Part shown: piece by piece, positions 3,378 through 33,355 of the stretch
Layout: the number at the start of each line of letters is the position of its first letter
How positions within the stretch are numbered: position 1 is the first letter of the stretch
IMG/VR virus record: IMGVR_UViG_3300045110_000374
Coordinates: 1-62,667 of that record
DNA length: 62,667 nt
Direction: 5' to 3' (one strand)
DNA from: a virus
Taxonomy: Duplodnaviria; Caudoviricetes
Position numbers and translations under genes: made by a program
The notes under the pieces: generated by a model
Seen by the model: the letters and a program-made list of their open reading frames with translations, nothing else
Databases searched by the model: none
Told to the model about the DNA's origin: nothing

Positions 3378-3883
3378 TCGTTGCAGCGTTCGATTTAGGA
3401 TTTTCGTGCGGATATGGCGTGCTCGCTCGGCGAATAGCTCGATCGGGCACGCTTCGTCTTAAGGGTGGTTCTCCCCATAACATGGGCCTAGCGTGCCGAT
3501 CCCTGCATGAGGTGGTGAAGCGCATCTGCAAGGAGCATCACCCTGACGTTCTGACATGTGCCGATCCTCATATCGCGAGGAAAGCGACCGTCATTGCGCT
3601 CTGTTCCATCTTCGGTCTGTACGTGAAGTTTCAGGAATGCGCGCTCGACCTTGGAATTCCATTCCACCCTTGTAACGAGTCCGACGCCCGCCATGCTTTC
3701 CTTGGTAGGGTTCCTCGTAAGAGCGAGGACATTAAGCAAGCCGTCATGCACGGATGCCGCCTGCGCAATTGGCCCGCTACCGATAACCATGCTGGCGATG
3801 CGCTGTGCGTGGCCGACTTTGTTCTCGCGAAGCTCGATAAGGGTGCTGGCTGGAATCGGACCCCGTTAGGGGCGAACACGTAG
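3374..3883 (+). CDS. RuvC-like Holliday junction resolvase
   Basis: N-terminal AFDLGFSCGYGV, K..IKQAV, C-terminal DNHAGDALCV motifs. Confidence 0.75.
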   Translation: MIVAAFDLGFSCGYGVLARRIARSGTLRLKGGSPHNMGLACRSLHEVVKRICKEHHPDVLTCADPHIARKATVIALCSIFGLYVKFQECALDLGIPFHPCNESDARHAFLGRVPRKSEDIKQAVMHGCRLRNWPATDNHAGDALCVADFVLAKLDKGAGWNRTPLGANT

Positions 3884-20892: not shown

Positions 20893-20938
20893 GTAGCGGC
20901 GCCCGCAAGCCTTGGGTAGCGGCGCCCGCAAGCCTTGG
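20893..20938. repeat. Perfect 23-bp tandem duplication GTAGCGGCGCCCGCAAGCCTTGG x2
   Basis: Read directly from the sequence. Confidence 0.9.
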
Positions 20939-21064
20939 GACTCCATCGGGACGCAGCCTAAAGTGGGAAAGTCGCTCCCACGTCTTCTTACGCCATTTTT
21001 TCCGGGTAATTTCGCCCCCCTTATGTTACACAGATGATATTATTCGTTGGTGAGGGTGTGGGCG

Positions 21065-24738: not shown

Positions 24739-24992
24739 CGGACACTCTGTCGACCGACCAAGAGCAAGTCGTCAGGGCGCAGGAGACCATCAAGCGCCTG
24801 ACGACGACAATTCGGGCCGTTCAGGTTGTCATGGAGGCCTTGTACGGGTACGCGGAGAAACTTACAGCGGTAGAAAATGGAGAGTACGAAGTTCACAAGG
24901 CAGAGGCGTATCACAATGCCGCCGAGGCCATCCGTTTCGCGCTCTCAGATGAGGTGGACACAAAAGACCGCAAAGTGCCAAAATACGATTGA
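24735..24992 (+). CDS. Hypothetical protein immediately upstream of terminase
   Basis: ATGA-coupled on both sides. Confidence 0.6.
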   Translation: MTDTLSTDQEQVVRAQETIKRLTTTIRAVQVVMEALYGYAEKLTAVENGEYEVHKAEAYHNAAEAIRFALSDEVDTKDRKVPKYD

Positions 24993-26911
24993 TGCCGCCC
25001 AAAGCCCTTGCCGTTCCGACGTCGCAACGCGCTTGGCGCGACCTGTTCGATGAATTCCTCACCAAGCTCCGCATCGACTCCAAAGAGACGGTGGCCGAAG
25101 ACGAACGCGGCTCCGAACTCGAAATGTGGGGTTCGCAGCGCATGTTCCTGGACAACATCTGTATTGGGCTCGACCAAGGCAAGCGCGAATTTCTATGCTT
25201 GAAAGCGCGTCAGCTTGGGGTCTCCACCATAAGCCTTGCGATCCTTCTGTTCTGGCTCGCAATGCACCCTGGGCTACAAGCTGCCCTCGTCGTGGATACC
25301 GAAGAGAACCGGGAGAAGTTTCGGCTAACGATACATCGGTATATTCAAAGCTTTCCAAAGAAGTTTTTCGGTGATTCCTTCGCCATCAAGAAGGGCAAGG
25401 ACAACCGCGCCTTCACGCATTTCACCAACGGCTCGAACCTGGACTATCTGGTGGCAGGCAAACGCAAAAAGACGCTTGGCGAATCGCGCGCCTATAACTG
25501 CGCGCTGTTGACGGAGTGTGCCAACTACGGTGACCCAGATGGCTTGAACTCGTTCGTCAACACGCTCGCGCAAACCCATCCCGATCGGCTGTACCTGTGG
25601 GAATCGACCGCAAAGGGCTACAATCACTGGCACGACATGTGGCTGGAAGCCGGCCGCGACACCCTCACCAAACATAGATTCTTCATCGGCTGGTGGTCCA
25701 AGGACATCAATGCGTACTCGCCGCGAGGCCCGGCGCCGCAACCGGCACTCTTCAAGCAGTACTCTCAGGAAACGCTTTCGCGAGAAGAAAGCGAGATGAT
25801 CGACGCGGTCAAAAAGCGCTACGGCGTGACCATCACCCAAGGCCAACTCGCTTGGTATCGCCACCAGCAGTCCAACGTCTCGGTGCGCGAAGAGTCCATG
25901 CACCAGAATTTGCCTTGGGTTGAAGAACAGGCCTTCGTTTTGACCGGCTATTCGTTCTTTCAAACGCGCGTCCTGCAAAAGGATATGTCCAGGATTCAGG
26001 GCCTCGAACCGGGCAGCGAGCCGGTCAAGTTCAAAGGCTATCGCTTTTGGATCGGGGAAGATTTCTTTTCCACCAAGATGGAGCAGGTTCGCACAGTAGA
26101 CGAGGTGGAATTACGAATCTGGGAAGAACCCTCCAAGCATGGCGATTACGTCATTGGCTGTGACCCGGCATTCGGACGAAACGACAATAAAGATAGGCAC
26201 TGTTGTGAGGTGTATCGCTGCTACGCGGACAAGCTGGTTCAGGTGGCTGAGTACGCCGTCGACAACGTCGAGACCCGGCAAGCCGCATGGGTGCTGGCGT
26301 ATCTCGCGGGAACGTATCGAAACTGCATCTGCAATCTCGAACTCACCGGTGGCCCTGGCTTGGCGGTGTTGGCCGAATTCAACAATTTGCGCAATCAACT
26401 CAACGCCGAGATGTATTCGCAGCGCGTCAAGGACCTCGACTGGGAAGACTTCTTGAACAACGCGCGTTGGTTTTTGTATCACAAAAGCGATTCGCTTTCA
26501 GGCGCAGGTTATGTCGCGGGCTGGAAGACTTCACGCGATAACAAATTCGAAATCATGAACCAGCTTCGCGACCTGCACGTCACCAACGTGCTTATTTTGC
26601 ACTCGCTTCCGTTGACTGAAGAGATGCTGACGTTCGTTCAGGACGGCGGCGAACTCGGCGCGCTCGGCACCAACAAAGACGATCGCGTGTTTGCAAGCGC
26701 GCTAGCAAGTCGCGCATTTATTGATTGGGTAAGAGGCCGAATGTTGAGTGCAAACATGACTTTTGCGCGCGTGCAATCCGGTGAGGCGGGCGACAATTCC
26801 GACCCCGGCGTCGTCGATAGAATCGTTGCTGATTTTTTCAGAAGAGCCGAAGAACGAGCAAACGAAGGCTCGGAACCGCCGCGGTGGATGAAAGAACGAG
26901 GACTGGCGTAA
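24989..26911 (+). CDS. terL: Terminase large subunit
   Basis: LKARQLGVST Walker A, ESTAKG coupling motif, IGCDPAFG and KDDRVFA nuclease motifs. Confidence 0.93.
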   Translation: MMPPKALAVPTSQRAWRDLFDEFLTKLRIDSKETVAEDERGSELEMWGSQRMFLDNICIGLDQGKREFLCLKARQLGVSTISLAILLFWLAMHPGLQAALVVDTEENREKFRLTIHRYIQSFPKKFFGDSFAIKKGKDNRAFTHFTNGSNLDYLVAGKRKKTLGESRAYNCALLTECANYGDPDGLNSFVNTLAQTHPDRLYLWESTAKGYNHWHDMWLEAGRDTLTKHRFFIGWWSKDINAYSPRGPAPQPALFKQYSQETLSREESEMIDAVKKRYGVTITQGQLAWYRHQQSNVSVREESMHQNLPWVEEQAFVLTGYSFFQTRVLQKDMSRIQGLEPGSEPVKFKGYRFWIGEDFFSTKMEQVRTVDEVELRIWEEPSKHGDYVIGCDPAFGRNDNKDRHCCEVYRCYADKLVQVAEYAVDNVETRQAAWVLAYLAGTYRNCICNLELTGGPGLAVLAEFNNLRNQLNAEMYSQRVKDLDWEDFLNNARWFLYHKSDSLSGAGYVAGWKTSRDNKFEIMNQLRDLHVTNVLILHSLPLTEEMLTFVQDGGELGALGTNKDDRVFASALASRAFIDWVRGRMLSANMTFARVQSGEAGDNSDPGVVDRIVADFFRRAEERANEGSEPPRWMKERGLA

Positions 26912-26942
26912 CCCCACATAAATTGCTGTGTGAGGTTACGCC
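26905..26942. terminator. Long hairpin closing the pentamer array and the convergent terL transcript
   Basis: GGCGTAACCCCACATA-aattgc-TGTGTGAGGTTACGCC inverted repeat. Confidence 0.7.
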
Positions 26943-26950
26943 TCGTCCCT

Positions 26951-27501
26951 GAGCCAAAGCTCGCCAAGTCTTGTCACTCCACGCCCAGCCTTGCCCGGGC
27001 TAACCCTGCCTGCCTTGCCACTCCCCGCCATGGCCCACCAAGCCTAACCGGGTCATATCACGACTAGCCTGTCTTGCCATTTCCCGCCCCATCGTGCCGA
27101 GCCGTAGCCCGCCGCGCCTGCCTTGTCTGTCCTTGCCTTGCCCCAGCACGCCTAGCTCTGCCCAACCATCCTCGCCTGCCTTGCCTCTTCTTCCCTCGCC
27201 AGACCTCGGCCAGTCATTCCTAGTCGCCCTTGCCGAGCCAGCCGGACCTTGCCAACCTCATCGGGGCATATCTGGCCCCGCCTTACTTCACCACGCCTGC
27301 CAGACCATGTCTGACCTGATCCGGCCCCGTCCTCCTCGCCATTGCTTGCCGTGCCGGCCGTGCAGTGCCATGTACCGCCCTAACGGTCCTTGCCTCGCGA
27401 TCCAGGCCTTGCCTGCCTTGTCATGGCTCGCCGTGTCAGGCCCCGGCCAGCCTCGCATGACATGCCACGGCATGACTCACAGCGTCGTGTCGCGCCTCGC
27501 C
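26951..27501 (-). ncRNA. Pentamer-periodic (GGY-NN) guide-like RNA array, ~9 units of 49-63 nt separated by GGCAGGC-type junctions (VIPR-like)
   Basis: Plus-strand junctions gcctgcc/variants at 27008, 27067, 27116, 27174, 27237, 27295, 27353, 27411; between them G-led 5-mers such as GGCTA GTCGT GATAT GACCC GGTTA GGCTT GGTGG GCCAT GGCGG GGAGT GGCAA. Confidence 0.85.
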
Positions 27502-27510
27502 AAAACATCT

Positions 27511-27999
27511 TTAATTTGCACGCACCTCTTGCTCTGGCACAGATTCAGCGCGCAGTCGGATGCCAAAGCCCGTTAGATCGGCGATGCGTTGGTCAATCTC
27601 ACCCTCAAGGCCCAGCGCAATCGCAATATCGCGTGCTCGGCGCAACCGGGAAGCCGCGTGCTCGAATTCGGCAGCAACGGTTTCTCTCGCAAGTTCTTCT
27701 TCCGATTGCAGGCGCCGCACCGAACGATAGCCCTGTTTGTTGCTCGGTTGCTCGACGTCACGCACATAGCCAACAACGCCGACTTGAACGCGGTTGATAA
27801 CGATATGCACCTCGACGCGCCGTATAAGCTCGCGCGCTTGGTTAAGACGGTGCGCTTGAGCGGCCGCGGCATCGTCCCATTCGAACTCCTTATGCAACGG
27901 GCTGTTATGGTCTTGCGCCGCGCGAACGATGTCATCGGGTGTGATTCGTCCGTCTTCGGTTTCCAGTGCCGTGATGGCGTCAATAAGTTCTTTACGCAT
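27511..27999 (-). CDS. Accessory protein of the Cas7-like/pentamer-array locus
   Basis: ITP.DIV.AA...NSPLH.EFEWDD..AA..HRL.QAR.LIR motif; start overlaps the Cas7-like stop; stop lies 10 nt before the array. Confidence 0.8.
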   Translation of the reverse strand: MRKELIDAITALETEDGRITPDDIVRAAQDHNSPLHKEFEWDDAAAAQAHRLNQARELIRRVEVHIVINRVQVGVVGYVRDVEQPSNKQGYRSVRRLQSEEELARETVAAEFEHAASRLRRARDIAIALGLEGEIDQRIADLTGFGIRLRAESVPEQEVRAN

Positions 28000-28822
28000 G
28001 TGCGGCTTCTCCTTCTGAAGTGTCGATTGCCTTGCGCCGCTTTTTGGGCTTGTCCGAATCGGAGCCGCGGCGCTTGCGCTCCTCGTAATACCAGCGGTAC
28101 ATGTCCTCCGTTTCGTCGTCGTAGAAATCAGGATTGGCCAAAGCCTCGTCCTGGATTTCACGGCCTTCGCGCAGAACGGCGAGATATTCTGGGTCATCCT
28201 CAGTCACAATTTCGAATTGGCCAAAGCTGAAGGTGCCTTTCTCTTGTCGGCCGTCGCCTACACCAACGATCATGCCGGCCGCGGCAAGCAGATTGGCGAC
28301 GGATTGAAAGTTCAGTTTTGGACGCATGTATCGCAACGTGATTGTTGTCGCCCACTTCGGCAGAAGTGCGCGAGTTCTAATATCCGGCGTCTTCTGAATT
28401 CCAGCCATGCGGACAACCGCCATGTAAAGCTGCGGGCGTCCGAAGATTTCAACGTCTCCCCATTGCGCTGTTAGCAATCGACCGATTTCAGTCTTGGCAG
28501 CACCGGGGATGTCCAGCGCAGCGGATGCTGCCGCCTTCTTGAGCGCATTCGATGGGAATTTGAGACGCGTCGGGTGATCGTCCGTGCGGTAACGGTAAAC
28601 GCTGTCGCGATACTCTTGTAGTGGGTCATGCTTGATGTTGGACGCCTTCTCCGCTGCGCCCATTCTGCCCGGTCGCGGCAGCAACAACTGCATCCGCGCC
28701 TTCTCGCTCATCCGATTAAAAACGAAAGGTGAGCGCCCTAGGATATGAAATTGCGCTTCGCCGAATTCGAGTTCTGAAATCACCAATTCGGCGCTTGCCG
28801 ACGTCTTACTCTCTCGTGCCAT
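27992..28822 (-). CDS. Stand-alone Cas7/RAMP-like RNA-binding protein (Vipr-like)
   Basis: RAMP-type layout: F.ILG.SPF.F strand, FPSNALKKA (cf. IPGSSLKG), R.R..LP.W strand, terminal Gly-rich loop GVGDGRQEKGTFSFGQFEI; GGAGG RBS. Confidence 0.78.
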   Translation of the reverse strand: MARESKTSASAELVISELEFGEAQFHILGRSPFVFNRMSEKARMQLLLPRPGRMGAAEKASNIKHDPLQEYRDSVYRYRTDDHPTRLKFPSNALKKAAASAALDIPGAAKTEIGRLLTAQWGDVEIFGRPQLYMAVVRMAGIQKTPDIRTRALLPKWATTITLRYMRPKLNFQSVANLLAAAGMIVGVGDGRQEKGTFSFGQFEIVTEDDPEYLAVLREGREIQDEALANPDFYDDETEDMYRWYYEERKRRGSDSDKPKKRRKAIDTSEGEAAHA

Positions 28823-28957
28823 GAACGGCCTCCATTGTCGCGCGGCCAGTCACGCCCGACGCGATGAAGCGGGGGATGCGGTGAGGCATCGCCGTCGACA
28901 ATGGAGGTTCTCTGGATACTGCTCACCGCGTTCGCCTTGTGACTGCAAGGTGTTGTT

Positions 28958-28986
28958 GATTTACGATTGGGGTGGAAATTAAGCAA
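28958..28986 (-). promoter_or_regulatory. Putative sigma70 promoter for the Cas7-like operon
   Basis: TTGCTT-N17-TAAATC on the minus strand. Confidence 0.5.
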
Positions 28987-29099
28987 GAGGGGCGACCATA
29001 AAAATCATTTGGTGCGCCCCTCCTCTTACTTAGCTTGCCTAAGCCTGACGGACCGGGTCTTGCCAAAACTGGCCGAAGCGGGGCATGCCATTCCTTGCC
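28987..29099 (-). ncRNA. Solo pentamer guide-like unit (14 G-led 5-mers) followed by a hairpin
   Basis: GGCAA GGAAT GGCAT GCCCC GCTTC GGCCA GTTTT GGCAA GACCC GGTCC GTCAG GCTTA GGCAA GCTAA, then GAGGGGCG..CGCCCCTC stem. Confidence 0.75.
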
Positions 29100-29162
29100 T
29101 ACTTACAACGCGGTAGAAACTACTGTATTCCCCAAGTAAAGGTTTTTGAAAAGGGGCTTGTA

Positions 29163-29696
29163 GTGATTCCGCGACACTTAAGGCCGGCTGAATACACAAT
29201 CCATTGCGAATGTTTGATCTGCGGCCATGTTTACAGCCGAAAGGTGCGCAGGGTGACTGAACGAAACCCACCCTGCCCCATCAAAGCCTGCCGCGAGGCT
29301 CAGGCCAAGGCCCAAGCCGAACGCATGGCGGCCAATATCGAGAACATTATCGCCGAGCAAAGGCCGCCCGGTGTTGTTGGTTCGAACGTCGCCAAAGCCA
29401 TCGATCACACGAATGAAATCGTCGCGCGGGATTATGGTTTTTCGGATGTTCGTGACGCTAAGCGCGAGGGTGACACATCGGTTCCTCGGCTTCCCACCCA
29501 CCAGCAAGCCCGTGTCGACGGCTTCTGGGGCAACAAACCAAAGCACAACCCCGCCCTTGCGAACCAAATGCACCTGCTAGGGCAGCGCGCCATGGCCGGC
29601 TCGTTTGCACCGCGGGAAAAGACGATTGTCGATCACGCACTTTCGCCCGAGCACGGCCCTGGCTTGAAGCCCAACATCAAAATCATCGCCGGCTAA
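29163..29696 (+). CDS. Zinc-ribbon protein preceding portal
   Basis: C.C..CGH...CP...C; likely GTG start at 29163 after AAGGGG. Confidence 0.7.
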   Translation: MIPRHLRPAEYTIHCECLICGHVYSRKVRRVTERNPPCPIKACREAQAKAQAERMAANIENIIAEQRPPGVVGSNVAKAIDHTNEIVARDYGFSDVRDAKREGDTSVPRLPTHQQARVDGFWGNKPKHNPALANQMHLLGQRAMAGSFAPREKTIVDHALSPEHGPGLKPNIKIIAG

Positions 29697-31510: not shown

Positions 31511-33355
31511 TTAACGTACCATCACGGTTGGATAAGAGTTCGCAATCGCGCTCAAATAATACTCGTCTGGGGACTGACCTTGGCCGCCATGTGCCTTGTT
31601 TATCAAGGTTTGCACGACAATCTGGTTCACGCCTGAGTAGGTGATCCGAGTTTTGTCCAAAAATAGGATTTGAAGGTACGACCGGGCCGGGTCGTAGCCA
31701 ACCCAATCCATCAGTCGAGATGTATTTCGAAAGTAGAACCAAAACCCTTCGCCAAGCCCCCCCATACTGCTGGTGGTGCCGCCTCCCGTCGGAGCGACCG
31801 CCGTGCCAACCCCGGTGGCTGATCCAACCGCGGCGGCGGTTGCGGCGCTAACCCCAAGCGCTGTGCCGGTACCGGTGGCTGAGCCTCTTTTGCCGGTCGT
31901 GTCGCCGACGGCAAGCGCTGTGCCAATACCAGCGGCTGTGCCCCGGCTTCCTGTGGTCGCGCCGACGGCTGCGGCCGAGCCAACGCCCGCGGCCGAGCCG
32001 ATGCTGGCTGTAGCGCCGACGGCAGCAGCGGTGCCGACGCCGGCTGCCGAACCGCTGCTGGTGCCTATCGATGCGCCGGCAGCAGCGGCAGCGCCCGTAC
32101 CAGTAGCCGCACCAACGCCCAATCCGGTGCTTGTCGATGTGCCGACACCAGCGGCGCCACCAACGCCAGCAGCCGAGCCAGCGCTTGCTGTTGCGCTAAG
32201 CGCAGACGCTGTGCCGATACCGGACGCTGCGCCGACGCTGCCCGTCACGGCACCGACACCAAGCGCTGTGCCGACACCGGACGCCGAACCGATGCTGCCA
32301 AGTACTGCACCGACGCCATTGGCTGCACCAACGCCAGCAGCAGCGCCGGTTGCAGAAACTATGCTGCCGTTCGAGGTTTCGCTTCCGAGCGTGTAGAACG
32401 TTGCAGGAGCGTTCTGATTGCGATACGAGGCCGTGAGCCAATCAGCCGACCGGACCGTATTGGAAATCCTCAATTCGTCGAGGATTCCGTTCCATTCGCG
32501 AGATGACGTCGCTGAGTCATGTCCCGCATAGCTCGTGACGGCCGATGTATCGAGGACAAAGCCGCCGCCGGCTGTGCCGGCAGAAGCGTTATTGACATAC
32601 GAGGCAAGCCCGGTCCCCGTGCTGTAGGTCCAATCCACCTTATAAAAAGTGCTGGTTGAGAGCGTGATGGACCCGGGATCGAGCTGAGTTGCGCCGACGT
32701 TCTGGAGATAGGCTGCGGTCTTGCCTGCACTAGTGATGAAGAATTGCGAATAGACCGTTACGCTGCCGTTAATGCGCGACCAGACCGTGTTGTAGCCGTG
32801 CGGAAACGATGTGGCGTTAACCCAACATTCGACCGTGATGGCCGCAGGGTTGATCGCGTTACTTGTCGACGCGTACTGGGTGCTGACGGAAGCAAGCGCC
32901 ATTCCCCCGTCGACCTTGCCGGCGCCTGCGATGGGGCTGTTCGTGGGTGCGCCGTTATTGCCGTTCGACGTGCTGTCGGCAAGACTGAGTGTCGTCCCGT
33001 CCCTATAGTGATAGACGCCAAGATAGGCGCTGTTCCACACCGAACTCGCCACCGACTGGAACGTCGAGACCGTGTTGTCGCCGTAGAAGCAGGCAAATGT
33101 ATCGGCGACCGCGTGAAGCGTCGTGGCCTTGAAGTGCGCCACCACGTCGCCGGTGGCGGAATTGTAGCGCTCCATTTCCCAGAAGAACGGGGACGATCCG
33201 TCGCCGTTCGGCCCAAAGCCTATGTCATTGCCGTTCGCGTCCGTGACGTGCGTGCGATCGATCTGCGAGGCGAACAGGACTGGGAAATCCGTCAGGTTGC
33301 CCGACGGCGGCTGGGCGATGGTGAACGGAACGTAGTAGGCCGGCGTAATCGCCAT
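31511..33355 (-). CDS. Virion-associated DUF2341/LamG (ConA-like) protein with Gly/Ala repeats and C-terminal KTSC-like domain
   Basis: LTDFPVL..D.NG.DI.F, GVYH, WNGILDELRISNTVRSADW; GSA.GVG.A repeats; VGYDP....L.I.F....Y.GV. Confidence 0.7.
   Translation of the reverse strand: MAITPAYYVPFTIAQPPSGNLTDFPVLFASQIDRTHVTDANGNDIGFGPNGDGSSPFFWEMERYNSATGDVVAHFKATTLHAVADTFACFYGDNTVSTFQSVASSVWNSAYLGVYHYRDGTTLSLADSTSNGNNGAPTNSPIAGAGKVDGGMALASVSTQYASTSNAINPAAITVECWVNATSFPHGYNTVWSRINGSVTVYSQFFITSAGKTAAYLQNVGATQLDPGSITLSTSTFYKVDWTYSTGTGLASYVNNASAGTAGGGFVLDTSAVTSYAGHDSATSSREWNGILDELRISNTVRSADWLTASYRNQNAPATFYTLGSETSNGSIVSATGAAAGVGAANGVGAVLGSIGSASGVGTALGVGAVTGSVGAASGIGTASALSATASAGSAAGVGGAAGVGTSTSTGLGVGAATGTGAAAAAGASIGTSSGSAAGVGTAAAVGATASIGSAAGVGSAAAVGATTGSRGTAAGIGTALAVGDTTGKRGSATGTGTALGVSAATAAAVGSATGVGTAVAPTGGGTTSSMGGLGEGFWFYFRNTSRLMDWVGYDPARSYLQILFLDKTRITYSGVNQIVVQTLINKAHGGQGQSPDEYYLSAIANSYPTVMVR

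What the first reader, a model, noticed from the sequence alone, without database searches (positions are those of the whole stretch)
26951..27010. Decoded guide resembles a terminase gene segment: possible targeting of a related phage
The last unit (GGCAG GGTTA GCCCG GGCAA GGCTG GGCGT GGAGT GACAA GACTT GGCGA GCTTT GGCTC) gives NN = AG TA CG AA TG GT GT AA TT GA TT TC. Read as codon positions 1-2 with the third base skipped, this is [SR]-Y-R-[NK]-[CW]-V-V-[NK]-[LF]-[ED]-[LF]-S. This phage's terL at 26312-26347 is ACG TAT CGA AAC TGC ATC TGC AAT CTC GAA CTC ACC (TYRNCICNLELT). That is 17/24 specified bases matching in codon register; two mismatches are synonymous Leu (TT vs CT) and three are conservative (S/T twice, V/I). 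Inference: the guide hits terL of a competing relative while mismatching self, and skipping wobble positions would resist synonymous escape. The nucleotide match alone is not clearly beyond chance, and I found it by eye.
Basis: partly seen in the sequence, partly recalled or inferred. Interest (0 to 1): 0.8.

Follow-up and report, generated by a model that had tools for sequence, protein, structure and literature searches.

The report
Phage VIPR guide aimed at relatives' terminase
The 60-base unit is one guide in the RNA-guide array of a phage-borne VIPR system, a recently described relative of CRISPR, and its variable bases spell a conserved piece of the terminase gene as it reads in related phages rather than in this phage itself.

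Summary
The minus-strand unit at 26951-27010 decodes to 12 dinucleotides. Read with every third base skipped, they match this phage's terL at 26312-26347 in frame at 17 of 24 positions.

The unit is the last guide of a 572-nt array of GGY-NN pentamers (26935-27506, minus strand). The array follows two genes. One is a Vipr-family RAMP protein (27992-28822). The other is an accessory gene (27511-27999).

The self match alone is not significant. A profile of 114 relatives' terL genes, self excluded, scores the guide at 26.9 bits at that same site, and 0 of 5000 shuffled guides reach this. Relatives match up to 20/24, which passes the published 0.8 cut-off; self is 0.71.

Two other adjacent segments together match the gene next to terL in relatives at 32/38, against 21/38 in self.

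No near-perfect target was found. I cannot tell whether the target is a rival phage or a satellite.

The parts
26951..27010 (-). The finding's unit (segment 'o'). It is the last 12-pentamer guide of the array. It begins right after a GGCA tetramer that marks a 1-nt overlap with the previous unit.
   Evidence: decoding. Best targets are 20/24 in L031 and L021 terL. Profile score is 26.9 bits, with 0/5000 shuffles reaching it.
26935..27506 (-). Downstream vrRNA array: 101 pentamers and 14 tetramers of the form GG(C/T)NN on the minus strand. It looks like a 'staggered' array, in which units overlap by one base.
   Evidence: Lag-5 identity is 0.47-0.49, against a window mean of 0.247 (sd 0.039). 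Chain score is 174, against 22 or less in 10 shuffles. The staggered-array description comes from a figure legend.
27413..27506 (-). Segments 'a' (27457-27506, 10 units) and 'b' (27413-27457, 9 units). Their footprints are contiguous on the target.
   Evidence: Joint match is 32/38 in L150 and 30/38 in L117, L083, L004 and L003; the null maximum is 27 in 300 shuffles. Profile peaks fall at residues 106 and 116 of the same gene.
27992..28822 (-). vipr gene, a RAMP-like protein of 276 aa with a C-terminal extension.
   Evidence: PHROG_4652, E 2.6e-9. It clusters with the tract-linked family. The family profile hits PDB 36pp_D 'SUSP1 Vipr protein' at E 1.1e-36. The AF2 model has pLDDT 82 and its top Foldseek hits are Csm3/Cas7 chains.
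27511..27999 (-). Accessory (vap-like) gene of 162 aa. The start at 27999 overlaps the end of vipr and has an AAGGAG ribosome-binding site.
   Evidence: PHROG_15946, E 8.2e-19. The same family sits beside tracts in 17 of 53 loci. The AF2 model has pLDDT 86, with only weak winged-helix-like fold hits.
26905..26942 (-). Strong hairpin at the 3' end of the array, overlapping the terL stop codon. It is probably a terminator or 3' cap for the array transcript.
   Evidence: It folds as a 14-15 bp stem on either strand. The function is inferred.
29030..29099 (-). Candidate solo upstream vrRNA of about 14 pentamers, followed by a hairpin at about 28987-29022 and a T-rich stretch.
   Evidence: Chain score 26.1, which is borderline against a shuffle maximum of 22.4. 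No significant target was found.
26312..26347 (+). The phage's own terL site homologous to the target of segment 'o'. It is a partial match, below the published target cut-off.
   Evidence: 17/24 = 0.71. All ten segments have self maxima of 0.62-0.79.
29400..29456 (+). The phage's own site homologous to the target of segments a+b, in gene 29085-29696. It is strongly mismatched.
   Evidence: 21/38 = 0.55. Segment 'a' alone scores 11/20.
24989..26911 (+). terL, the large terminase subunit, bordering the VIPR cassette.
   Evidence: PHROG_2, E 5e-15. tblastn matches annotated terminases in 272 phage records.

Best explanation
Coordinates 26912-29084 hold a VIPR (Viral Interference Programmable Repeat) cassette. 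It lies on the minus strand, between terL and the next structural-region gene of a complete 62.7-kb soil phage genome. The cassette encodes a Vipr RAMP-like protein, a small accessory protein and a long array of GG(C/T)NN pentamers. What follows on mechanism is taken from the published work on the SUSP1 system, not shown here. The array is transcribed and cut into guides of about 9-16 pentamers. One Vipr protomer binds each pentamer and buries the GGY bases. The exposed NN pairs then base-pair with double-stranded DNA in which every third base is skipped, and this silences transcription of the target. The finding's unit is the last guide of the array. Its 12 NN pairs spell codon positions 1-2 of a conserved 12-codon stretch of the large terminase as it reads in other members of this phage family, not in this phage. 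It therefore most likely directs silencing of terL in a co-infecting or resident relative, or in a satellite with a related terL. The 7 mismatches to the phage's own terL keep it below the targeting threshold. Two further segments at the 5' end of the array do the same for the gene that sits next to terL in relatives. Shown here: the locus anatomy, the family link, and the statistics of the target matches. Inferred: transcription, processing, silencing, and the identity of the real target.
For: Array: a 5-nt period unique in the window, with conserved GG(C/T) and near-random NN positions (0.07-0.09 bits). Linkage: a generic (GGNNN)x9 scan of IMG/VR returned 117 or more loci. I analysed 53 strong tracts: 51 from that scan, plus the window and L156. 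Of these, 42 have a PHROG_4652-family gene and 17 a PHROG_15946-family gene within 3.5 kb, with 41 of the 42 and all 17 on the G-rich strand. The window has both genes. The family profile hits PDB 36pp_D 'SUSP1 Vipr protein' at E 1.1e-36. The model resembles Csm3/Cas7. Cultured phages with the gene also have tracts. The papers describe the same parts and the same rule. Targets, segment 'o': 20/24 in two relatives, all 17 hits of 18 or more at the homologous terL site, and 6/600 shuffles reach 20. Profile test: 26.9 bits, 0/5000 shuffles. Targets, segments a+b: 32/38, null maximum 27 in 300 shuffles, self 21/38. Profile tests for a and b. In five complete relatives, only 'o' and 'a+b' stand out clearly among 25 tests. 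All three hits are in frame with the skipped base at the wobble position. No self match reaches 0.8.
Against: No target of 22/24 or better was found. The best matches (0.83-0.84) only just pass the published 0.8 cut-off and lie in distant relatives (terL 46-47% identical for L031 and L021). Across 54 distinct homologous terL sites the mean score is 16.2, slightly below self (17), and 26 sites score lower than self. The candidate target is homologous to the phage's own gene, so relatives' scores are correlated with the self match. The papers excluded that situation for their own candidates. Seven of ten segments and the upstream candidate vrRNA have no significant target in what I could search. 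The window's Vipr alone gives no PDB hit by phmmer. By alignment to the SUSP1 chain it carries Asn and Gly where SUSP1 has His17 and Trp178, two GG-contacting residues. The accessory protein is unlike the second gene of a Felixounavirus VIPR locus. Guide boundaries come from my own segmentation, not from RNA data. No RNA evidence exists for this locus.
Confidence: 0.8

Rival explanations
1. The locus is VIPR and the guide logic is the same, but the real target is a phage satellite (or another parasitic element) that carries terL-family and neighbouring packaging genes. It would not be an autonomous rival phage.
For: [quoted passage not shown] Both targeted genes here are adjacent packaging-region genes. 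No sampled full-length relative gives a near-perfect match.
Against: Every good hit I found lies in contigs that look like whole phages of the same family (56-67 kb). No satellite-like contig with these genes turned up. Only terL-anchored loci were sampled, so satellites were not really searched.
Confidence: 0.2
2. The locus is VIPR, but the resemblance of this one guide to terL is a coincidence and its true target lies elsewhere.
For: The self match alone is unremarkable: 15-18% of shuffled guides do as well somewhere in the window. The best non-self matches are 20/24, not perfect. 6 of 600 shuffles reach 20 in the 2.5-Mb set.
Against: The profile test gives 0 of 5000 shuffles, with 26.9 bits against a null maximum of 18.2. 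All six codons at which the guide mismatches self carry dinucleotides seen in relatives at that codon. The register is in frame with the skip at wobble. A second, independent guide pair hits the neighbouring gene of the same relatives.
Confidence: 0.06
3. The guide acts on the phage's own terL. Partial pairing (17/24) would tune or delay the phage's own late-gene expression, so this would be self-regulation rather than interference.
For: The best match in the phage's own genome is in terL, in frame. The array is adjacent to terL.
Against: The published systems show no self hits at 0.8 or above, and perturbing NN pairing abolished silencing. Self is 0.71 for 'o' and only 0.55 for a+b at the homologous sites, while relatives reach 0.83-0.84. 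The self mismatches sit at positions where relatives match the guide.
Confidence: 0.04
4. The tract is not a guide array at all. It would instead be a structural nucleic-acid feature: two-tier G-quadruplex or R-loop forming DNA, a C-rich Rho-loading site downstream of terL, a packaging site, or a decayed pentanucleotide microsatellite.
For: There is strong strand asymmetry (GC skew down to -0.39). The + strand RNA is unstructured (z 0.21). The tract lies next to the terminase gene.
Against: Positions 1-2 of each + strand pentamer are near-random while positions 3-5 are conserved, which is not how a microsatellite decays. Tight linkage to a Vipr-family gene holds across 42 of 53 loci in unrelated phages. 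The closest terL relative (L085, 70%) has no tract after terL. The NN bases carry target information.
Confidence: 0.02

Closest known systems
VIPR type II system of Escherichia phage SUSP1 (Vipr + vap1 + vrRNAs). Sources: bioRxiv 10.64898/2026.04.26.720920 and 10.64898/2026.04.26.720927; PDB 36pp.
   Same: A RAMP-like Vipr gene is followed by a small accessory gene. GGY-NN pentamer RNAs lie upstream (one candidate) and downstream (an array). Guides have about 9-16 pentamers. Targets follow the 1-nt skip rule with skips at wobble positions and match other mobile elements at 0.8 or above, while self stays below 0.8.
   Different: There is no conserved pseudoknot tail between units. Instead there is a continuous array with 1-nt overlaps (GGCA|G junctions) and a single terminal hairpin. 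The Vipr is very divergent: no direct phmmer hit, and Asn and Gly at the positions of SUSP1 His17 and Trp178. The accessory protein belongs to another family, PHROG_15946 (hhalign probability 0.1 against the Felixounavirus gene). The host is probably a soil bacterium rather than an enterobacterium.
'Staggered' vrRNA arrays of other VIPR types. Source: the legend of fig. S18 of 10.64898/2026.04.26.720920, read.
   Same: Individual vrRNAs derive from positions that overlap by 1 nt, so the end of one marks the start of the next. Here the pentamer register slips by -1 at GGCA|G junctions, and clean units of 12 pentamers span 59-60 nt. The same layout is seen in L251 and L185.
   Different: I could not see the figure or the type table, because supplements are closed. 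Which of types I-VII this locus belongs to is therefore not established. In the window the array is more irregular, with 14 slips in 572 nt.
Class 1 CRISPR effector backbones (Cas7/Csm3 filaments on crRNA).
   Same: The predicted Vipr fold matches Csm3/Cas7 chains (Foldseek probability about 1.0, E 4e-5). One protomer binds per short RNA segment, and periodic bases are excluded from pairing (papers).
   Different: There is no repeat-spacer array, no cas genes and no adaptation module in the window. The period is 5 nt on the guide and 3 nt on the target, against 6 and 6 for CRISPR. The guide is noncontiguous. TM-scores are low (0.29-0.47), so this is a shared fold core, not membership.

Membership tests
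VIPR system | A Vipr protein (minimal RAMP: RRM core, G-loop, thumb) is encoded beside the repeat RNA. | tested here: met
   ORF 27992-28822(-) matches PHROG_4652 at E 2.6e-9. It clusters with the tract-linked family and is 15-34% identical to its members. The family profile, including this protein, hits 36pp_D 'SUSP1 Vipr protein' at E 1.1e-36. The model resembles Csm3/Cas7. Caveat: the protein alone gives no PDB hit at E of 1 or below.
VIPR system | The residues that hold the GGY bases in SUSP1 Vipr (His17, Arg138, Asp177, Trp178, Arg179; paper section read) are conserved. | tested here: inconclusive
   I mapped the columns through the profile-to-36pp alignment and alignment A2. The G-loop Asp and Arg and the thumb Arg are kept. 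The His17 column is Asn and the Trp178 column is Gly. The same Gly is seen in the sub-group L223, L239, L241, L251 and L273, which also carries the PHROG_15946 gene. The column mapping was done by eye.
VIPR system | vrRNAs are made of tandem GGY-NN pentamers (9-16 per guide), with conserved GGY and hypervariable NN. | tested here: met
   There are 101 pentamers and 14 tetramers. Minus-strand G1 is present in 88/101, G2 in 69/101, and position 3 is C in 68/101. The NN positions carry 0.07-0.09 bits. In-phase segments hold 7-12 pentamers.
VIPR system | A vap accessory gene lies next to vipr. | tested here: inconclusive
   A translationally coupled 162-aa gene is present. Its family recurs beside tracts in 17 of 53 loci. 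Identity with any of the published vap1-6 could not be checked, because the type tables are in closed supplements. It is not similar to the second gene of the Felixounavirus locus. There is only a weak winged-helix-like fold hint (E 0.4-1).
VIPR system | Natural targets follow the 1-nt skip rule at 0.8 NN identity or above, with skips mostly at wobble positions, and lie in other mobile elements. | tested here: met
   Segment 'o' scores 20/24 = 0.83 in L031 and L021 terL. Segments a+b score 32/38 = 0.84 in L150. All are in frame with the skip at codon position 3. Seven of ten segments have no target in the searched set.
VIPR system | No self-targeting at 0.8 or above. | tested here: met
   The best self identities of the ten segments are 0.62-0.79.
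VIPR system | The array is transcribed and processed, the RNA co-purifies with Vipr, and the complex silences matching DNA. | not testable with these tools
   No RNA run holds the stretch. This needs bench work.
VIPR type II (SUSP1-like) | Each vrRNA ends in a conserved 3' tail of about 40 nt with a pseudoknot. | tested here: not met
   Pentamers run on without interspersed tails. Only one terminal hairpin is present, at 26905-26942. The papers say array architecture varies between types, so this excludes type II, not VIPR.
CRISPR-Cas | A repeat-spacer array with identical direct repeats, plus cas genes (at least an effector set, usually cas1/cas2). | tested here: not met
   The repeat finders show no such array. 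There are no Pfam or PADLOC cas hits for the neighbours, except a weak Csm2-like hit (E 0.0011) for a homologue of the accessory protein.

The most novel reading that the evidence does not exclude
The cassette's identifiable guides are aimed at the two genes that flank its own insertion point. These are terL on one side and the next gene on the other, and in VIPR-less relatives they are direct neighbours. If this is not an accident of sampling, the cassette would behave like an RNA-guided 'allele exclusion' element. In a mixed infection it would silence the packaging genes of relatives that carry the empty site, while its carrier's own alleles are protected by a handful of non-wobble mismatches. 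That would favour both the carrier phage and the cassette itself, and would be a silencing analogue of the marker exclusion caused by homing endonucleases in T-even phages (that comparison is recalled, not from a call). A second point would also be new: the contiguous footprints of segments a and b (19 units, 57 nt of target) across a 4-nt unit suggest that staggered arrays can lay neighbouring filaments end to end on one target.
Probability: 0.15. Interest if true: 0.75.

Novelty: new member of a known kind. Interest (0 to 1): 0.55.

Why it matters
VIPR systems were described only in 2026 preprints, mostly from enterobacterial and Pseudomonas phages. This window adds a complete locus from an uncultivated soil phage. 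It belongs to a divergent Vipr sub-group with a continuous 'staggered' array and a different accessory gene.

It also gives natural, statistically supported targets in essential packaging genes of the phage's own family. Self and non-self are separated by only a few non-synonymous differences: 0.71 against 0.83 for one guide, and 0.55 against 0.84 for the other.

That makes the discrimination threshold of VIPR testable on a natural pair of sequences. It also supports the idea that wobble-skipping guides track protein-constrained positions.

Finally, it shows that a reader working from raw sequence recovered the code. The simple chain score used here finds such arrays widely in IMG/VR and in cultured Gordonia, Mycobacterium and Felixounavirus phages, where the gene is annotated as hypothetical.

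Tried and rejected
Ideas I held before the family link was found, and then dropped:
- A TRAP-like ring-protein binding array.
- A Rho-loading (C-rich) site.
- G-quadruplex or R-loop forming DNA, or a replication origin.
- A pac site or a cluster of Chi-like sites.
- A decayed pentanucleotide microsatellite.
- Pentapeptide-like coding.
I dropped them because positions 1-2 of each + strand pentamer are free while positions 3-5 are fixed, because of the gene linkage, and because of the information carried by the NN bases.

Searches that gave nothing:
- Rfam at gathering thresholds: 0 matches.
- tRNA scan: 0 genes.
- blastn of the tract against 50,697 phage records: no match.
- Pfam on the neighbouring genes: 0 families.
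- Promoter scan of 26300-29200: 0 sites. Three terminator-like sites were found, none at the array.
- RNA folding of the tract: z 0.21 on the + strand and -2.59 on the - strand, mostly due to the terminal hairpin.
- terL as a single-protein query in IMG/VR: nothing.
- P0087 as a query in IMG/VR: nothing. Its peptide at the site would, by the codon table, allow up to 23/24; that figure is my inference.
- A lag-5 scan of 160 terL-anchored loci: only L156 has a comparable tract.
- Three literature word searches before the PDB hit gave the name.
- Seven of ten array segments, 13 of the 15 adjacent-segment combinations (a+b was significant and d+e+f borderline at 1/200), the upstream candidate vrRNA and the L156 tract: no significant target in the 2.5-2.8 Mb I held.
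- Sequencing runs: no RNA holder is listed. Two soil DNA runs hold the stretch. One is probably the source. The other has 12% of the sampled words and a few 151-nt contigs.
- Supplements of the papers are closed. The VIPR type tables and figures S16-S18 and S21 could show which type and which vap this locus has.

Rows dropped: for the linkage count I kept only tracts with a chain score of 80 or more and at least 25 distinct pentamers. That gave 51, taken from the pattern-scan tracts scoring 35 or more that one search lists, plus the window and L156. For the site distribution, only sites found by my peptide motif and unique as 36-mers were counted: 54 sites from 168 terL loci.
Full report
WHAT IS AT THE COORDINATES

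Laid on the + strand with one base skipped between dinucleotides, they match 26312-26347 at 17 of 24 positions. That site is in the reading frame of the 640-codon ORF 24989-26911. The ORF is the large terminase: PHROG_2 at E 5e-15, and tblastn hits to annotated terminases in 272 phage records.

The match is the best in the window. No other + strand position reaches 17, and the - strand maximum is 16. Taken alone it is weak. A score of 17 or more somewhere in the window was reached by 178 of 1000 order-shuffled guides and 153 of 1000 base-shuffled guides. Only the after-the-fact restriction to in-frame terL positions is rare, at 15 of 5000.

THE UNIT BELONGS TO A LARGER OBJECT

From about 26935 to 27506 the sequence has a 5-nt period that is unique in the window.
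- Identity at lag 5 in 150-nt windows is 0.47-0.49. The window mean is 0.247 (sd 0.039), and the next best place reaches 0.38.
- A dynamic-programming segmentation gives 101 pentamers and 14 tetramers.
- On the minus strand the pentamers read G (88/101), G (69/101), C (68/101) or T, then N, N. The two N positions carry only 0.07-0.09 bits.
- The register slips by one base at recurring GGCA|G junctions. The last two units are clean runs of 12 pentamers.

The tract lies between the terL stop codon, where a 14-15 bp hairpin sits at 26905-26942, and the stop of a minus-strand gene. It has no Rfam match and no blastn match in 50,697 phage records. The window itself is a complete virus record with terminal repeats.

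HOW THE IDENTITY WAS FOUND

The closest terL relative with DNA in hand (L085, 70% identical) has no such tract after terL. Among 160 terL-anchored loci only L156 has one, and it lies elsewhere in that genome. The tract is therefore an accessory insertion.

Many of these carry tracts of 200-1500 nt of the same kind, with the same GGCA|G punctuation about every 59 nt.

I clustered the ORFs within 3.5 kb of 53 strong tracts. These were 51 tracts kept by score and complexity, plus the window and L156. One protein family occurs in 42 loci and a second in 17. With one exception in the first family, they lie on the G-rich strand, and most often directly upstream of the tract. The families are PHROG_4652 and PHROG_15946, both of unknown function.

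The window has both genes in that order: 27992-28822 (E 2.6e-9) and 27511-28197 (E 8.2e-19). The likely start of the second gene is at 27999, behind an AAGGAG site and overlapping the end of the first gene.

Homologues of the first gene occur in 152 cultured-phage records, including Felixounavirus, Mycobacterium and Gordonia phages, where it is annotated as hypothetical. The three I opened all have tracts beside the gene.

A profile of the first family, window protein included, hits one solved structure: 36pp chain D, 'SUSP1 Vipr protein', at E 1.1e-36. The AlphaFold model of the window protein has pLDDT 82.3, and its best Foldseek matches are Csm3/Cas7 subunits of type III, type VII and Cas7-11 complexes. 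Probability is about 1.0 and E about 4e-5, with low TM-scores.

WHAT IS KNOWN ABOUT THIS KIND OF SYSTEM

The name Vipr led to three 2026 preprints.

For 10.64898/2026.04.26.720920 I read the whole Results, two methods sections and passages of figure legends. It describes VIPR systems as follows.
- A minimal RAMP protein (Vipr), an accessory gene (vap), and vrRNAs of 9-16 pentamers in which conserved GGY alternates with hypervariable NN.
- The NN bases pair with double-stranded DNA under a '1 nt skip rule'.
- Skip bases fall mostly on wobble positions, and either strand can be targeted.
- There is no PAM.
- The outcome is transcriptional silencing.
- Natural targets were called at 80% NN identity or above, and no self hits passed that cut-off.
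- Seven types are named, some with 'staggered arrays' whose vrRNAs overlap by 1 nt.

For 10.64898/2026.04.26.720927 I read the abstract and two Results sections. It gives the structural basis: one protomer per repeat, with the GGY bases flipped out and held by named residues.

For 10.64898/2026.10.15.759431 I read the abstract, one Results section and two methods sections. It shows competition with a satellite. It argues that matching codon periodicity prevents mutational escape. It notes that self-match scores are lower than non-self scores.

TESTING THE SPECIFIC CLAIM

I read ten in-phase segments of the array from the window file by coordinate. I scanned them under the skip rule against all fetched loci (2.4-2.8 Mb, both strands) with shuffled-guide nulls.

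The finding's segment ('o').
- The best scores are 20/24 (0.83), in L031 and L021.
- All 17 hits of 18 or more lie at the homologous terL site, in frame.
- 6 of 600 shuffles reach 20.
- Because relatives' sites are correlated with the self site, I added a test that uses the family's variation. A profile of codon positions 1-2 was built from 114 non-redundant relatives' terL genes, self excluded. It scores the guide at 26.9 bits at residue 442 (= 26312). The second-best offset scores 2.0. None of 5000 shuffled guides reaches 26.9; their maximum is 18.2.
- The reason is visible. At all six codons where the guide differs from self, the guide's dinucleotide is one that relatives carry at that codon.

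Results against the claim.
- Over 54 distinct homologous sites the mean is 16.2. 13 sites score above self, 15 equal it and 26 fall below.
- Nothing above 20/24 was found.

INDEPENDENT CORROBORATION FROM OTHER GUIDES

The first two segments of the array, 'a' (27457-27506) and 'b' (27413-27457), have profile peaks ten codons apart in one gene. That gene is the relatives' homologue of window gene 29085-29696, which follows terL directly in relatives that lack the cassette.
- Joined, they match 32/38 (0.84) in L150 and 30/38 in four other loci.
- The null maximum is 27 in 300 shuffles.
- The phage's own homologous site at 29400 matches only 21/38 (0.55).
- In five complete relatives fetched whole, only 'o' and 'a+b' stand out clearly among 25 segment or combination tests. 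One other combination was borderline at 1/200.
- Those five genomes have no comparable tract. Their chain scores are 15-29, against 174 for the window.
- No segment matches its own genome at 0.8 or above.
- The other seven segments and a candidate upstream vrRNA (29030-29099, followed by a hairpin) have no significant target in what I held.

HOW IT MOST LIKELY WORKS

Shown here:
- the parts of the locus, their linkage across many phages, and the family link to Vipr;
- that the NN bases of three segments encode protein-constrained positions of two adjacent packaging-region genes, as they read in relatives rather than in self.

Inferred from the SUSP1 work:
- minus-strand transcription from upstream of vipr through the array to the hairpin;
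- processing at the 1-nt-overlap junctions;
- Vipr filaments on each guide;
- gapped pairing with the template strand of the target, since the guide letters equal the coding strand;
- silencing of the target.

The target would be a related phage in the same host, or a satellite with related genes. The data do not decide between them. The host is unknown. Relatives' terL genes sit in MAG contigs labelled Acidobacteriaceae (two), Opitutales, Brocadiia, Lentisphaerae and Hyphomicrobium, plus two weak Gemmatimonadota hits. The DNA occurs in soil metagenomes.

DIFFERENCES FROM THE DESCRIBED TYPE II SYSTEM

- The array has no interspersed pseudoknot tails.
- The Vipr is very divergent. It gives no direct PDB hit and is 15-34% identical to family members.
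- By my column mapping it has Asn and Gly where SUSP1 Vipr has His17 and Trp178. It keeps the G-loop Asp and Arg and the thumb Arg.
- A sub-group with the same Gly (L223, L239, L241, L251, L273) also carries the PHROG_15946 gene.
- That accessory protein is unlike the second gene of a Felixounavirus locus. It gives only a weak winged-helix-like fold hint.
- Which published type this is cannot be settled without the closed supplements.

VERDICT

The feature is a VIPR guide and belongs to a kind that is already in print. The locus is therefore a new member of that kind, with some sub-type differences. It comes with a well-supported natural target class in relatives' packaging genes and an unusually clean self/non-self contrast.

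My confidence that the locus is VIPR is about 0.93. My confidence that this guide is aimed at a non-self terL-family gene is about 0.8.

Noticed in passing
L156:2054-2188 (+): A distant terL relative (37% identity) carries about 27 GGYNN pentamers. They are bounded by a terminator-like hairpin and a T-run, between two genes. No PHROG_4652-family gene lies within 3.5 kb. This may be a 'solo' vrRNA of the kind the October 2026 preprint reports in enterobacterial phages. No significant target was found for it.
   Followed up: partly
L279:3110-3345, L280:2102-2362, L281:2184-2403 and 3596-3668: Three cultured phages have clear pentamer tracts beside a gene annotated only as a hypothetical protein: Gordonia phage Ecliptus, Mycobacterium phage Brocalys and Escherichia phage ESCO50. 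In Brocalys the annotated start of gp45 overlaps the tract.
   Followed up: partly
window 26912-29084: The whole VIPR cassette sits exactly between terL and the gene that is its direct neighbour in relatives. Both flanking genes are the ones targeted by the identifiable guides.
   Followed up: partly
proteins P0028, P0073, P0075, P0096, P0104, P0110, P0112, P0114: Several terL homologues are about 970-1060 aa long instead of about 630. Most of them carry precomputed Pfam hits such as PF14890, PF14528 and PF05203. These look like intein or homing-endonuclease insertions in the terminase gene; what the Pfam accessions stand for is recalled, not checked.
   Followed up: no
window 31959-32061 and 32207-32318: Two imperfect tandem duplications with periods of 54 and 57 nt (81-82% matches). 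They lie inside the long minus-strand ORF 31511-33355, downstream of the portal gene.
   Followed up: no
window 20893-20939: A perfect 23-nt tandem duplication (two copies, 100% match).
   Followed up: no
L129:1152-1400: A relative's contig carries an array of near-identical 20-nt direct repeats. This gives a strong lag-10 signal and is unrelated to the pentamer tracts.
   Followed up: no
window 26335-26371 (run X1, record 3): The probable source metagenome holds a separate low-depth 151-nt contig. It aligns to terL just beside the guide's site, with 2 changed letters and 6 gaps. This hints at a co-occurring relative, but the contig is too short to score against the guide.
   Followed up: no
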